Positions 9,955 through 56,892 of a stretch of DNA of 64,000 bases are shown here, in pieces. The first letter of the stretch is position 1; each line of letters starts with the position of its first letter. Location: positions 23,932,001 through 23,996,000 of the forward strand of contig OX597829.1 of assembly GCA_951406725.2 (NCBI GenBank). Reading direction: 5' to 3'. The stretch is from Octopus vulgaris (Eukaryota). Made by a program: the position numbers and the translations under genes. Under the pieces are notes generated by a model. That model ran no database searches. It saw only the letters and a program-made list of their open reading frames with translations, and was not told where the DNA came from.

Positions 9955-10780
9955 CTTAAAGCGGCAAAATTTTTGCAAAACTGTTACTCGGTTTCATATT
10001 CTCATTTGTTATGATGAATACTGTATTCATCACAACTGTCAAATGATCAAGAGCATGAAACTCTGAGTAAGTTTTGTGAAAATTTTGTAGCTTTAATAAA
10101 AGCATATTACACTGCCATTGGTATTTGAGTACTATTTTTTCCATCTTGTTTTGCATTTATGTGCTTATTTGCGTGTGTGCATAGGTATATATATATATAA
10201 AAAAATGGAGAAAACCACAGATTAACCAACACATCACTTGGACCAGATTTATAGCTTATTTTTTGATACAAAGCATGACATAACAAAATAGGTGACGTAA
10301 CATATCTTACGGCTGTTACTGATCAGTTGCCAAAATGCAGTCTATACATAAATGCAGGAATAAAATTCTTCATCTTCATAGGGCATTCGAATTAAGGCAA
10401 CAGATCATCAGAGTAAAAAACAAGAGCATCAGGGGCTACAGGGTCAGTAGATAAGTCTTTTACCTACCGACCCTGTAGCTCCTGATGATAAATTATTTGC
10501 TCTTCAGTAATGGCTGTAAGATATGTTACATCGCCTATTTTGTTATGTAATGCTTTGTATTAAAAAATAACCTATAAATGTGGTCCAATAGATGTGTTGG
10601 TTAATCTGAGGTTTTCTCCATTTTCTAATTATTTGCATTGGTTCCTGATAAACTCTTGTTTATCCTGTTGTTATCTGCACTCTAAGTGTATGGTATGCCT
10701 GCTCACCAATCCCCAGGGATAATACAGCTAATGGATACCAATAGTATATATCGATATTTTATCCCTTAGTTGGTTGCTAT
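9955..10780. mobile_element. Penelope-like terminal-repeat fragments with inverted duplication
   Basis: ~120-bp inverted repeat 10201-10321 / 10504-10624, inner hairpin 10427-10488 and decayed hammerhead remnants. 10050-10165 is the reverse complement of the 43140-43255 family. Confidence 0.55.
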
Positions 10781-11061
10781 AATTGCTAACTCTGTTTACA
10801 CACATACACACACAAATATAACTAAATTTCAAGAGAACAAATTTCAAAGGTCAGTCTTCATATTCATTCAATATATTCCAAAGCGTTGGAATACTCCACA
10901 GCATACATGGGTGCAGTCATATAAAAATTTATAAATATATAAAAATACATAAATGTACTTGAGAAGTTGTATGTCCATATTAAAATCAATGAGGATATTA
11001 AAATATGCAGATAGTGAATGTATTGCAGTAATCCATATAGATGAGAAAGTTAGTATATATA

Positions 11062-11460
11062 GGCGCAGGAGTGGCTGTGTGGTAAGTAGCTTGCTAACCA
11101 ACCACATGGTTCCGGGTTCAGTCCCACTGCGTGGCACCTTGGGCAAGTATCTTCTGCTATAGCCTCAGGCTGACCAAAGCCTTGTGAGTGGATTTGGTAG
11201 ACGGAAACTGAAAGAAGCCTGTCATATATATATGTATGTGTTGTGTGTGTTTGTGTGTCTGTGTTTGTCCCCCTAGCATTGCTTGACAACCGATGCTGGT
11301 GTGTTTACGTCCCTGTCACTTAGCGGTTCGGCAAAAGAGACCGATAGAATAAGTACTGGGCTTACAAAGAATAAGTCCCGGGGTCGATTTGCTCGACTAA
11401 AGGCGGTGCTCCAGCATGGCCGCAGTCAAATGACTGAAACAAGTAAAAGAGTAAATGAGT
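11062..11460 (+). mobile_element. Full-length tRNA-derived SINE family A
   Basis: Head ggcgcaggagtggctgtgtggtaag (A box) and ggttcagtccc (B box), central TA/TG microsatellite, GTAAAAGA tail. Confidence 0.92.
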
Positions 11461-11579
11461 ATAAAATGATTTTAAAAGGAATCTTGAGCAGGTGCAAAGT
11501 CTGATGGCCGTATCGAGAAGATATAGGTTGGTATGGGTGAGTTATATATATATATATATAAATATATATTTATCATAAT

Positions 11580-12363
11580 GAGATAAAAAAAAAAAACAAG
11601 GCTGTGTAGACTTTAGAACATTTATAAATAGGTCTTACAGCTGTTTCTAGGATATTTATTATATCCCTTCAACTGAGACGGTGTGAGAAAATGGTTAAGC
11701 AATAGTTAATTTAGATAAGATACGAAATAGAGAGTGAGGTGGAGGAATGAGAATAGATGTGAGATATGCATTTGTAGATCCATTATTTAGGCAGAATGGT
11801 ATACCTATAAGATTTCAATACCTTATGAGCAAAATCCAATAGTATTTAAAATTGGTCATTCCAAGTATAGAGTTTATACACAGTGTTATTGAATCAAGTG
11901 TTTTATTTAAAGTGACATTTGAGTATAAGTGAGGAATTAGATAGGGATTAGTAGTTAAAATGTAGATTTATAAGGTTATTGGGATTACCTAAGGGGTATT
12001 GTGGAAATATACTTTATGGTCATTTAAGCATTTGGATTTGTGATAAAATTTGAATGTGTGAAAAAAGCAGTGGTTGCATGTGCTTAGTACCTCATTATGT
12101 TTATTTAGCAGTGCTGGAGAGTTGTGCTTTAATATGTGAAGTGCCTCCTTCAGGCAAAACTTGTAGGTTGACCGTTGACCTCGGTAGGGAAGCCAAGAGT
12201 CCAGTATGGACCATGACAGAGTATAGGGTATATTTGTATTTTGTATGTGGTTGGCGAGTGTTATAGATTTATCGTATCTAAAAGAATTGTCATGGCTGGC
12301 TAGAGAGTGACCATTGGTTTTGCACCTAGGCGACACATCAGACTCAAATGGATGGAGGCACAT
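11580..12363 (-). mobile_element. Penelope-like element 3' fragment: GIY-YIG endonuclease C-terminus followed by terminal repeat
   Basis: ORF 11989-12363: SHDNSFRY..ITLANHI...YTLSWSIL...PY....KFCLKEALHIL...LLNKHNEVLSTCNH fits the H..SF..T.LS.HIW..W.IL..PY..C.LCL.EK..I..LNKR.E...CRH pattern of PLE endonucleases. A hammerhead-like motif lies downstream. Confidence 0.75.
11632..11679 (-). ncRNA. Degenerate minimal hammerhead ribozyme motif (PLE type)
   Basis: gtct-CAGTTGA-agggatat aataa atatcct-a-GAAA-cagctg-TA-agac. Helix I gtct/agac, helix II ggatat/atatcc, palindromic helix III ACAGCTGT. The CUGANGA box is mutated. Confidence 0.65.
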
Positions 12364-12525
12364 AAACTCTCTACAACTAAAAGGAATCTGACAAGTTGCT
12401 TATACAGCTAAGCATTTTATAGGTGCAAAACCAAGACAGATGTGTACATGCATGCATACACACACACACACATACAATGACAGTTTAGGGAAGAGTTTAC
12501 TTACATGATTTACTCAAGTAAGACA

Positions 12526-54405: not shown

Positions 54406-55782
54406 GTGAGTAAGAATTTAATCATGGAATCTATATAATTCCTCCTTTTCTCTCCATAATCTTCATATCCTTCCACTGTTGTGTCTTCTGTCAATAATAA
54501 CATTGTAGGTAGCATCAGCACTGCTTCTCTCGTTGATATTTGTTGTATCAGATTCATATGTGTTTCCCTGAAGACATAGGTTTGACAGATCTGTGATTTT
54601 TTTTCCCTCTTTCCTTATAAATTTATTCATGTGGTTTCTTAAGTGATGTGATTCTTTTCGGAATGACATTGTAGGGTAGGTGTAAGAGGCCTGATCTGGT
54701 CAGTTTGAACATAGAACAGGTAAAATATGTGGTTTCTCAATTCTGACAATGAAATCATCCAAATTTACCAAGTTTTAAGTCATACTAACAACTGAATTCT
54801 GAGTGCCATCTGGTGAAGTACTTAGGACATCATACTTGACTAATCCGGTATGGGTTCAACTTTGATTATCATCATGTAGTGTAGCTAGGGCAATATGACC
54901 CAATGGAGCCCATCTGTCTCTGGGCCTGACCACAGCTGACTTCCTCCAACTAGGTAGCTTGCCCTGGTCAGGAGACTTTGTGAATATCATACAGAGATTG
55001 TGTCACAAATGGGGAAGTGAAAAGAAGAATAAGGCAGGTAATAGGGCTCTATGAGGAACTTTTTAACATGGTTTAAGAAACACAAACCTCAGGTGGTTGG
55101 GGAATATCACCCACTCATTAGTGATAACCAAAACAATCCTTCAGGGAACAATCAAAGGTGGCAGACAGAGAAAGAGATGGGAAAATATCTGTGAGTGGAC
55201 AGGCCTAAAGATGAGAGATACAGTGCCAGAGGCTGAAAACAGAGGTGGGTAGAGAGATCTGGTCACAAGGTCATCAGTGGTGCCACAACGGTCAGCTAGA
55301 CTTCAGGATATGTAAAAAGTTGACTAATCTGGTACCAGCACATAGCACATCCCTTGCATCACCTTGTTTTTATTCTGTCTATAAGCTTATTCCTATGGAC
55401 TTGTTGTTTCCCACAATTCCATTAATTAAGTAATAAAAAAGAAATACAAAATCTTGTTTCCCATTGTAACATTTGAACTTGGTGCTGAAATGTTTCAGTC
55501 TGTTGTTCATATTAATAATTGTCTTTTAATGAGTTTCAATCAACACTGACAGAAAGAAAGAAAATAAAACTTTAGCTCTTTAGTATTCAAACTAGCCATA
55601 TCAAACCCAAATATTTACCTGTTCTACAGACATTGATGTTTCGTCATTGTTGTGACTTTTCAATGCCATGTCCCAAACAAGGTCTGCTGCAAGCTCTACT
55701 TCCAACTATGACTGAATGCTAAATGGTTAAAAAAAATCATCTGCTGGCATGTTCCAACATTTCATGCTATAGAAAAATTTCA

Positions 55783-55962
55783 AATGTGAATTAGAGGCAC
55801 CTTGAAGTATATAAACAAAATTGAACAGACATACACGAGGTGTGAGTGTTGTTAGTTTGTGGGTTGGCTGCGTTTTAGGTGTAAGAGAATATATTCCCAG
55901 TGTGCCTTGTGCATGTGTATTCAATTTTGCTTATATACTTTGAGCTGCTTACAATTCATGTT
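55783..55962. repeat. Imperfect inverted repeat (~55-bp arms)
   Basis: aagtatataaacaaaattgaacagacatacacgagg / ccttgtgcatgtgtattcaattttgcttatatactt. Confidence 0.75.
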
Positions 55963-55978
55963 GGAATAAATATATATA

Positions 55979-56360
55979 GGCGCAGGAGTGGCTGTGTGGT
56001 AAGTAGCTTGCTTACCAACTACATGGTTCTGGGTTCAGTCCCACTGCGTGGCATCTTGGGCAAGTGTCTTCTGCTATAGCCCCGAGCCGACCAATGCCTT
56101 GTGAGTGGATTTGGTAGATGGAAACTGAAAGAAGCCTGTCGGATATATGTATATATATATATATATGTGTGTGTCTGTGTTTGTCCCCCTAGCATTGCTT
56201 GACAACCGATGCTGGTGTGTTTATGTCCCCGTCACTTAGCGGTTCAGCAAAAAGAGATCGATAGAATAAGTACTGGGCTTACAAAGAATAAGTCCCGGGG
56301 TTGAGTTGCTCGATTAGGCGGTGCTCCAGCATGGCCGCAGTCAAATGACTGAAGCAAGTT
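55979..56360 (+). mobile_element. SINE family A
   Basis: Colinear with 11062-11460. Confidence 0.9.
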
Positions 56361-56764
56361 AAAAAAAAAAAAAAAGAGAATATACACACACACACACACA
56401 TATATATATATATATATATACACAAAGTGAGATAGGGGTTATGAGTGTAACCCACTATGGGATATCAGTTATCCAATATACTGCTGGTGAAGCACCCAAA
56501 TGCCAAATACATAAATGCTTATAATTGCAATGCAATTAATTCATTTATTGTATTAGATGGGCGAAGGTAAAATATTTTACCTCAAATTCATAATACAAAT
56601 AAGAAAATGGAGGAACAGATTCATTTCAATCATTGACTTTCAGATATTACCAATTCTTATTATTTATTAACTAGATAAATAGGAACATCCAAATCCAACA
56701 AAACAAAACAGTATACATCAATATGTAAGATAATAATACCATAAGAATAATACACATAAAATGG

Positions 56765-56892
56765 ATCTTACAGCTGTTTCAGCCTGTAGATAAAGGTATC
56801 TCATTCTGCCTATATTAGTCAGATGTATTGAGGTAATATGCAGTTAAAAATGAGTTACTGATATATATATATCTCAAGGCCTCGTCAGAGAT
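56765..56892 (-). ncRNA. Hammerhead ribozyme motif with ~90-nt helix II loop, in a PLE-type fragment (~56425-57030)
   Basis: atct-CTGACGA-ggcct-(~90 nt)-aggct-GAAA-cagctg-TA-agat. Flanked by inverted repeat 56594-56640 / 56982-57028. Confidence 0.7.

What the first reader, a model, noticed from the sequence alone, without database searches (positions are those of the whole stretch)
9955..56892. Recurrent Penelope-type minimal hammerhead ribozyme motifs scattered through one host gene's introns
Seen: at least five motifs with the order helix I - CUGANGA-like box - helix II - GAAA - palindromic helix III - UH - helix I'. They are at 11632-11679 (-), 23672-23819 (-), 27234-27268 (+), 43237-43274 (-) and 56765-56892 (-), with remnants near 10483, 18614 and 38333. 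The surrounding sequences are unrelated, so they come from several distinct families. Known: Penelope-like elements carry minimal type I hammerheads whose palindromic helix III supports dimeric self-cleavage, and one motif here lies just downstream of a PLE GIY-YIG fragment. Inference: this genome hosts a diverse, possibly unannotated population of short non-autonomous PLE derivatives carrying ribozymes.
Basis: partly seen in the sequence, partly recalled or inferred. Interest (0 to 1): 0.72.

Follow-up and report, generated by a model that had tools for sequence, protein, structure and literature searches.

The report
Penelope transposon stubs with variant hammerheads
The five motifs are leftover tail ends of common jumping genes that carry a known, likely self-cutting RNA fold and occur here no more densely than elsewhere in this octopus genome; the one twist is that a very young, apparently still mobile relative has a normally fixed core letter changed, which would let one test whether these elements need to cut themselves.

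Summary
All five motifs are at the stated coordinates, inside two introns of a CAP-Gly gene, and are not chance. They sit at genome background density (strict scan: 2 per 64 kb here, 12 per 400 kb elsewhere, 0-1 in shuffles). Each is one copy of a separate repeat family. Three are 3' ends of protein-coding Penelope-like elements: two Hydra-type, one Neptune-type. No parent ORF was found for the other two. So 'non-autonomous derivatives' is only partly right. Hammerheads in these elements are published, including an octopus Hydra example. Only two window copies keep CUGANGA. Of the remnants, 10483 is real; 18614 and 38333 are not hammerheads.

Added here: the 27234 core (CCGACGA, U4C) is a family trait, not decay (59 of the first 100 of 7,603 matches). 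A sister family has 99%-identical 6.2-kb copies, tandem arrays and open 884-aa RT+GIY-YIG frames, and carries U4C in 26 of 26 terminal repeats. I found U4C in print only for a viroid. Earlier scan notes saw it on other DNA, in this genome and in others. Cleavage is untested.

The parts
8917..8974 (+). Host CAP-Gly (CLIP1-like) gene exon; the 45-kb intron 8975-54350 follows
   Evidence: tblastn and splice sites
54351..54405 (+). Host exon; intron 54406-61604 follows
61605..62330 (+). Host exon (3' end approximate)
9955..10125 (.). Decayed inverted pair of stubs related to the 43237 family (3' half of the hammerhead only)
   Evidence: 76% match over 73 nt; sequence
10173..10820 (.). Inverted pair of stubs of a sixth family.
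   Evidence: GUAA in 21 and GAAA in 8 of 29 exact genome matches
11549..12287 (-). 3' stub of a Hydra-type Penelope-like element: endonuclease C-terminus (frame 11989-12399), about 670-nt internal deletion, terminal repeat
11632..11679 (-). Hammerhead 1: helix I GUCU/AGAC, 7-bp helix II, helix III ACAGCUGU, predicted cut after 11636. This copy's core is decayed; its subfamily mostly has CCGAUGA
23580..23825 (-). Old repeat copy (69-86% to relatives) holding hammerhead 2 (23672-23819) with a ~120-nt loop II; U4A in this copy; parent ORF not found
26690..27386 (+). 3' stub (~700 nt) of a Neptune-type Penelope-like element, ending at (TA)n
27234..27268 (+). Hammerhead 3: minimal type I, helix I GUUU/AAAC, core CCGACGA (U4C), 4-bp helix II, helix III ACGU, predicted cut after 27264; the only motif in sense with the host gene
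43133..43358 (-). 3' stub of a young Hydra-type element (main copy 43133-43309, inverted stub 43307-43358) inserted in (TA)n
43237..43274 (-). Hammerhead 4: canonical core, 2-bp helix II with GCAA loop (one C>T in this copy), helix III ACUC-A-GAGU, predicted cut after 43241
   Evidence: same helix I and III layout as Hydra-2_aMil
56400..57041 (-). Copy of a young repeat family (89-97% to relatives) with an inverted 5' stub (56977-57041); parent ORF not found
56765..56892 (-). Hammerhead 5: canonical core, ~90-nt loop II shared by the family, helix III ACAGCUGU, predicted cut after 56769

Best explanation
The motifs are terminal-repeat hammerheads left by five separate families of dispersed repeats, three of them traced to protein-coding Penelope-like retroelements, which were likely copied into (TA)n runs of these introns as dead, 5'-truncated stubs with no role for the host gene. 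In the parent elements, tandem RNA would bring two motifs together through the palindromic helix III and cut after UH, probably only slowly or with the element's own protein (inferred from published work, untested here). The element's RT and GIY-YIG nuclease insert the 3' end, often with an inverted stub (layout shown, chemistry inferred). The U4C core of motif 3 is inherited from source elements that kept spreading (shown). It most likely weakens cutting, which these elements tolerate (inferred).
For: ORF linkage: relatives of motif 1 carry the same hammerhead 1.0-1.4 kb behind the same endonuclease in 6 of 14 loci, and RT lies upstream in L072 and L076. Motif 4 is 99% identical to copies 1.1 kb behind a 663-aa RT+EN frame. 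Motif 3's longer copies L181 and L182 carry a GIY-YIG frame upstream in sense. Insertion layout: (TA)n ends, staggered 5' ends and inverted stubs. Structure under constraint: of 164 distinct core+palindrome hits gathered without asking for helices, 155 have at least 3 of 4 helix I pairs and only 1 has G at position 17. 12 of 17 arm types pair fully against a shuffle mean of 5.0, with 0 of 2000 shuffles as high (hits are related, so this is not a probability). Background density. U4C as family trait: CG 59, TG 35, CA 4, other 2 in the first 100 of 7,603 matches (hand tally). The state tracks subfamilies (3 changes against 12.7 shuffled). It is present in 26 of 26 repeats at 12 loci of a 99%-identical family with 884-aa open frames. 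C also dominates in four public runs from four studies (T in 11-26% of depth). PMC11167929 reports that a Poseidon hammerhead cuts only with protein and is dispensable for insertion in vitro.
Against: No cleavage was measured. No parent ORF was tied to the 23672 family (12 long loci) or the 56765 family (18 long loci); nearby ORF fragments there lay downstream, on the other strand or in unshared DNA. For the 10304 family only 1 locus (L279) has an adjacent RT fragment. [quoted passage not shown] The motif is better conserved than its flanks even with C4 (34/35 against 82%, P about 0.01; other pairs P 0.013-0.23), which fits continued function rather than mere tolerance. Monomer folding does not give the hammerhead fold for any window motif; this is expected for dimer-type motifs but is not support. 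In the motif 4 lineage the youngest copies have U4 and older ones C4.
Confidence: 0.85

Rival explanations
1. The motifs mark short non-autonomous elements (solo terminal repeats or retrozyme-like units) that multiply through their own small RNAs using Penelope proteins in trans.
For: 17 of 31 hammerhead-spanning copies of family 3 begin 60-85 nt before the core, giving a ~225-nt unit. One paralogous group of loci has a second short unit 219-264 nt downstream. No ORF was found for three families. A 2026 preprint derives animal retrozymes from PLE terminal repeats.
Against: The window copies of motifs 1, 3 and 4 match ORF-bearing elements collinearly. Family 5 has staggered 5' ends from -73 to -639. 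The shared start in family 3 could be a favoured truncation point or the edge of subfamily similarity.
Confidence: 0.3
2. The C4 core is a fully working variant: a protonated C or the element's protein restores the U-turn, so cutting is still needed and selected in the active family.
For: 34/35 identity of the motif against about 82% in flanks between two C4 subfamilies. N17 varies among U, C and A by subfamily and is G in 1 of 54. C4 recurs in at least four families. A protonated C can replace U in a U-turn (PMC4105743). A viroid U4C variant stays infectious (PMC3088659).
Against: U4C strongly lowers activity in vitro. A deep mutational scan found low activity for single mutants in this region (PMC9901934; the U4C value itself was not seen). 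The young family also has a U-U mismatch in helix I. Other eroded cores (A6U, A13U) are also family-wide.
Confidence: 0.35
3. The host gene has co-opted intronic ribozymes for pre-mRNA processing.
For: All five lie in introns of one gene, and motif 3 is in sense.
Against: Density equals background; four of five are antisense; three copies carry private decay; the sense copy is a monomer with U4C and a 4-nt palindrome (duplex -1.7 kcal/mol).
Confidence: 0.03
4. Chance matches in AT-rich, microsatellite-rich DNA.
For: No Rfam hammerhead hit; the loosest descriptor gives up to 3 hits in shuffles; two of the three remnants are not hammerheads.
Against: Thousands of exact genome matches with 0 controls; family alignments restore the full motif.
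Confidence: 0.01

Closest known systems
Minimal hammerheads in pseudo-LTRs of metazoan Penelope-like elements (Cervera and De la Pena 2014, PMC4209133; saw main text parts 1-2 of 4, supplement file 2 part 1 of 3 and search passages; file 1 could not be searched)
   Same: Type I layout, short helix I, extra base before helix II, palindromic helix III, thousands of mostly single truncated copies per genome, close inverted pairs.
   Different: Their consensus is CUGANGAH with a U3-A8 variant. U4C, A6U and A13U families were not in what I saw. My extrapolated load (about 30 per Mb) exceeds their highest counts (about 9,000 in Xenopus), but the descriptors differ.
Hydra clade of C-terminal-endonuclease PLEs (Craig et al. 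2021, PMC8557442; saw passages, section 11, supplement part 2 of 59 with the File S2 table, and supplement searches)
   Same: Parent of motif 4 has DKT, lacks CCHH and inserts in (TA)n. Hydra-2_aMil has the same helix I and helix III layout as motif 4. A mismatch at the base of helix II is common in the table. Hydra-1_oBim from an octopus is listed.
   Different: Every core in File S2 starts CUGA. The octopus families here differ in sequence from Hydra-1_oBim, have about 1.1-kb 3' regions, and include C4 subfamilies.
Neptune-type PLEs (defined in PMC8557442 passages)
   Same: The sister family of motif 3 has RT (YIDD, DKG), a CX4CxxC linker, a GIY-YIG domain with two inner cysteines, (TA)n targets and pLTR-ORF-pLTR tandems.
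   Different: 6.2-kb unit; U4C core and helix I U-U mismatch in every repeat examined; no early AUG in 8 of 9 full frames.
Poseidon element of Anolis, PAc (Frangieh et al. 2024, PMC11167929; saw passages)
   Same: Provides the tested mechanism: internal RT start with optional tail, AT-rich targets, protein-dependent hammerhead.
   Different: Different clade; its hammerhead overlaps the ORF start; I did not see its position 4.
Viroid U4C hammerhead variant (cited in Perreault et al. 2011, PMC3088659; saw section 8 and passages; original paper not read)
   Same: Same core change, reported as weak in vitro but viable in vivo.
   Different: A rare variant in a viroid hammerhead, not a fixed state in thousands of retroelement copies.
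Animal non-LTR retrozymes (PMC7229834, passages; bioRxiv 10.64898/2026.07.22.740005, parts 1-2 of 5, supplements closed)
   Same: Short hammerhead-bearing units related to PLE terminal repeats, often monomers.
   Different: Retrozymes are defined by tandem units; the window copies are single or inverted stubs.

Membership tests
Type I hammerhead ribozyme | Core CUGANGA + GAAA + UH | tested here: met
   Met by window motifs 4 and 5 and by relatives of motif 2
Type I hammerhead ribozyme | U at core position 4 (motifs 1, 2, 3) | tested here: not met
   Motif 3 and most of its family have C4; motif 1's subfamily mostly has C4; window copies 1 and 2 have private A4. Filed as variant, not canonical
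Type I hammerhead ribozyme | Helices I-III with compensating changes | tested here: met
   155 of 164 hits pair at least 3 of 4 in helix I; 139 of 164 have at least 2 bp helix II; different arm pairs between families
Type I hammerhead ribozyme | Self-cleavage after UH | not testable with these tools
   Needs an in vitro assay or raw stranded reads
PLE minimal/dimer-type hammerhead | Palindromic helix III able to pair between two copies | tested here: met
   Duplex -11.1, -7.4 and -1.7 kcal/mol; no monomer hairpin predicted
PLE minimal/dimer-type hammerhead | Located in the terminal repeat of an RT + GIY-YIG element (motifs 1, 3, 4) | tested here: met
PLE minimal/dimer-type hammerhead | Same, for motifs 2, 5 and the 10304 family | tested here: inconclusive
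   No collinear ORF in 12 and 18 long loci; one adjacent RT fragment for the 10304 family
Hydra clade (parents of motifs 1, 4) | DKT motif | tested here: met
   Present in the motif 4 parent; region not recovered for the motif 1 parent
Hydra clade (parents of motifs 1, 4) | No CCHH; CxCX5C linker | tested here: met
   No cysteines inside GIY..YIG in either. Motif 1 relatives have CxCX5C; in the motif 4 frames examined the second C is F
Hydra clade (parents of motifs 1, 4) | N-terminal RWK; placement in an RT tree | not tested
   Frames recovered are 5'-truncated (no RWK in the 663-aa frame); no tree built
Neptune clade (parent of motif 3) | CX2-5CxxC linker, CCHH-type GIY-YIG, DKG, C-terminal EN | tested here: met
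   884-aa frame; Nematis not excluded
Neptune clade (parent of motif 3) | Placement in an RT tree | not tested
   No reference proteins were aligned
Non-LTR retrozyme | Two or more tandem short units each with a hammerhead | tested here: not met
   Window copies are single or inverted; one paralogous group elsewhere has a short second unit
Non-LTR retrozyme | Circular RNA of unit length | not testable with these tools
   Only contigs of uncertain type were available

The most novel reading that the evidence does not exclude
A recently active Neptune-type Penelope-like family runs on a hammerhead whose U-turn uridine is replaced by cytidine and which still cuts inside the element's own RNP. Together with the A6U, A13U and U3-A8 families, this genome would be a natural library showing which 'invariant' core positions a protein-assisted hammerhead can drop, and CUGANGA-based surveys would have missed a large share of animal hammerheads.
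Probability: 0.35. Interest if true: 0.65.

Novelty: new variant of a known kind. Interest (0 to 1): 0.42.

Why it matters
The intronic scatter itself is ordinary repeat background. The useful part bears on an open question stated in PMC8557442: what the hammerhead does for endonuclease-bearing Penelope-like elements. Here sister subfamilies with U4 and C4 cores coexist, and one C4 family has near-identical tandem copies with open frames. RNA, protein and a natural core variant can therefore be compared within one system. Standard descriptors demand CUGA, so they miss more than half of the largest family seen here. In one Hydra-type subfamily, canonical-looking cores likely arise from CpG decay of C4 after insertion.

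Tried and rejected
Rfam scan: no hammerhead among 93 matches. Tool repeat search was swamped by microsatellites and tRNA-type SINEs. Pfam on the window's endonuclease fragment: nothing. Protein search for longer relatives of the 330-aa frame: none of 3,109 candidates. PDB sequence searches with both PLE frames: none. I first called the parents of motifs 1 and 4 'Neptune' and of motif 3 'Poseidon' from recall. The motif definitions in PMC8557442 changed this to Hydra and Neptune. I briefly read a fixed 5' end into family 5; alignment to a longer copy showed staggered ends, so I dropped it. The Neptune fragment upstream of a family 5 copy (L293) is not shared by other copies and was rejected as a link. 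U4C as simple CpG noise was rejected, because C is the majority state and follows subfamilies. The tree for family 1 used only 8 of 51 rows because my pattern failed on the rest, so it is not used. RNA evidence: no RNA holder is on record; the contigs laid say nothing about expression or cut ends. Monomer folding was uninformative. Remnants 18614 and 38333 were rejected by inspection; I ran no genome search for them. Literature searches for U4C in PLE hammerheads: hammerhead+U4C gave 1 paper; +CCGAUGA gave 1 and +CCGACGA gave 13, all unrelated by their listings; supplements. Of the 22 CCGACGA places in the Craig supplement I saw 2. PMC5850863 was not held. Repbase and Dfam consensus sequences, figure images and bioRxiv supplements could not be seen and may already hold C4 cores.
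Full report
Setting. The window is G000:C16:23932001-23996000 of a 2.8-Gb animal genome. The frame at 61605-62330 matches a CAP-Gly protein recorded for Octopus sinensis. Mapping that protein gives exons at 8917-8974, 54351-54405 and from 61605, with GT-AG ends. Four motifs lie in the 45-kb intron and one in the next. Only 27234 is in sense with the gene.

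Observation. Only those at 43237 and 56765 have CUGANGA. My strict type I descriptor finds these two in the window and none in 40 shuffles; looser settings add 27234 and 11632. The 23672 copy is too decayed to pass, but its relatives restore the motif. The same strict scan finds 12 hits in 399,900 bases taken at 40 round coordinates elsewhere (shuffles 0-1). Two of these are inverted twins, so there are 10 insertions. That is about 30 per Mb, the same as the window, and extrapolates roughly to 40,000-150,000 motifs in the genome. The gene is therefore not a hotspot. Of the remnants, 10483 belongs to an inverted pair of a sixth family; 18614 and 38333 lack the required parts.

What the families are. 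Motif 1 sits 345 nt behind an endonuclease fragment. Six of 14 related loci carry the same hammerhead 1.0-1.4 kb behind it in sense; the window copy has lost about 670 nt; RT lies upstream in two longer copies. Motif 4 is 99% identical to many copies, some behind a 663-aa RT+GIY-YIG frame, with inverted 5'-truncated partners in 10 of 20 loci. The DKT motif, lack of CCHH and (TA)n targets fit the Hydra clade, and the hammerhead has the layout of Hydra-2_aMil. Motif 3 ends a ~700-nt stub. Longer copies carry a GIY-YIG frame with a CX4CxxC linker, which is Neptune-type by the definitions in PMC8557442. Families 2 and 5 gave no collinear ORF in 12 and 18 long loci, and family 5 has staggered 5' ends. 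A ~225-nt form of family 3 with a shared start (17 of 31 copies) may be a non-autonomous unit.

Constraint on the fold. Across all DNA fetched, 164 distinct hits were gathered on core and palindrome alone. 155 pair at 3 or 4 of 4 helix I positions, with different arms in different families, and position 17 is G only once. The hits are related and many loci were chosen for these families, so this shows family-level design, not a p-value.

The U4C core. One exact pattern for family 3 has 13,049 matches. With positions 4, 5 and 7 free, there are 7,603 matches; the first 100 listed read CG 59, TG 35, CA 4, AG 1, TA 1 (hand tally). On a tree of 56 copies the C/U state needs 3 changes against 12.7 when shuffled, and the most divergent group has U (few branches are well supported, so direction is not shown). 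Among the 16 copies not fetched for this motif, 9 have U4 and 7 have C4. In family 1, the first 100 of 1,919 matches read CG 47, TG 34, CA 14, other 5 (hand tally). The TG copies split into a true U4 subfamily and about 17 copies of the C4 subfamily, close to the 14 CA copies, as CpG decay would give (inference). Searching with family 3's endonuclease found a sister family: about 27 of 150 scored matches lie in open frames of 850 aa or more (hand count). In 12 loci fetched, the unit is 6.2 kb, copies are 97-99.7% identical, two loci are tandem arrays, and 26 of 26 terminal repeats have CCGACGA plus a U-U mismatch in helix I. Nine single-copy loci have 884-aa frames differing by 0-17 residues. 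The motif differs from the window's by 1 of 35 nt while flanks are about 82% alike (P about 0.01, gaps ignored; other comparisons weaker). C4 also occurs in an older subfamily of family 4, whose youngest copies have U4, and in a fourth family. Four public runs show C at this place in 74-89% of depth, so it is no assembly error.

Mechanism. Shown: layout, linkage, copy numbers and inheritance of C4. From the literature: minimal PLE hammerheads cut poorly and only as dimers or with an extended helix III (PMC4209133). A Poseidon hammerhead cuts only with protein and is not needed for insertion in vitro; reverse transcription starts internally and explains the optional tail (PMC11167929). Inferred: the intronic copies are inert monomers, and U4C lowers but may not abolish cutting. 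U4C weakens a viroid hammerhead in vitro without loss of infectivity (PMC3088659). Single mutants around the U-turn were weak in a deep scan (PMC9901934). A protonated C can build a U-turn (PMC4105743). My odds: weakened and tolerated about 0.6, working with help about 0.35.

Known versus new. PLE hammerheads, their dispersal as single truncated copies and an octopus example are published, and recently active Penelope families are reported in Octopus vulgaris without mention of ribozymes (PMC13282606 passages). I did not find U4C in PLE hammerheads in the searches listed under Tried and rejected, but I could not see Repbase, Dfam, figures or some supplements. Earlier notes of this scan report U4C families in this genome and in others; they are not independent support, though they pointed me to the Hydra clade, which I then checked. 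Verdict: the finding as stated is ordinary; the family-fixed U4C core in a young, ORF-bearing tandem family is a new variant of a known kind and is directly testable. Interest 0.42.

Noticed in passing
L208:1009, L225, L230:457, L262, L263 and about 20 other loci: A very common relative of family 3 has core CUGUNGA (A6U) with a compensated helix I (CUUU/AAAG); 25 hits of this core type in the fetched DNA.
   Followed up: partly
L210:8634-9438, L211, L237, L239: A family with the U3-A8 core covariation known from Schistosoma; 6 hits in the 400-kb sample, three of them in one 10-kb stretch.
   Followed up: no
window 10304-10413 (-): Family with GUAA instead of GAAA (21 of 29 exact matches), only a 2-bp helix I and a long helix II; one copy (L279) abuts a broken Hydra-type RT.
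   Followed up: partly
L255-L263, 884-aa frames: The young Neptune-type frames have a Pro/Ser-rich N-terminus and no AUG before residue 495 in 8 of 9 copies; the translation start or an intron is unexplained. About 2.9 kb separate the stop from the hammerhead.
   Followed up: no
L163:1850-3190 (G000:C16 near 55645000): Fold-back insertion with a Hydra-type endonuclease between two inverted repeats, each holding a CCGAAGA-core hammerhead with a long helix II; the same family is in L213 and L265.
   Followed up: partly
window 49294-49737 (-): Mariner-type transposase fragment (Pfam PF01359, E 5.7e-8).
   Followed up: no
window 57531-58921: Tandem array of a 156-nt unit, several copies 99-100% identical, apparently inside a SINE-like repeat.
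   Followed up: no
window 7029, 11054, 19553, 24788 and many more: Two or more abundant SINE-like families (D10/D16/D18 and D13/D14/D15/D19); their tRNA-derived octopus SINE identity is recalled, not tested.
   Followed up: no
   Followed up: partly
window 22519-22752 and 23436-23619: Inverted arms of 92-96% identity beside the 23672 element.
   Followed up: no
L187:1364-4362 (-): Broken Helitron-like Rep/helicase frames next to a family 5 copy (label from recalled motifs).
   Followed up: no
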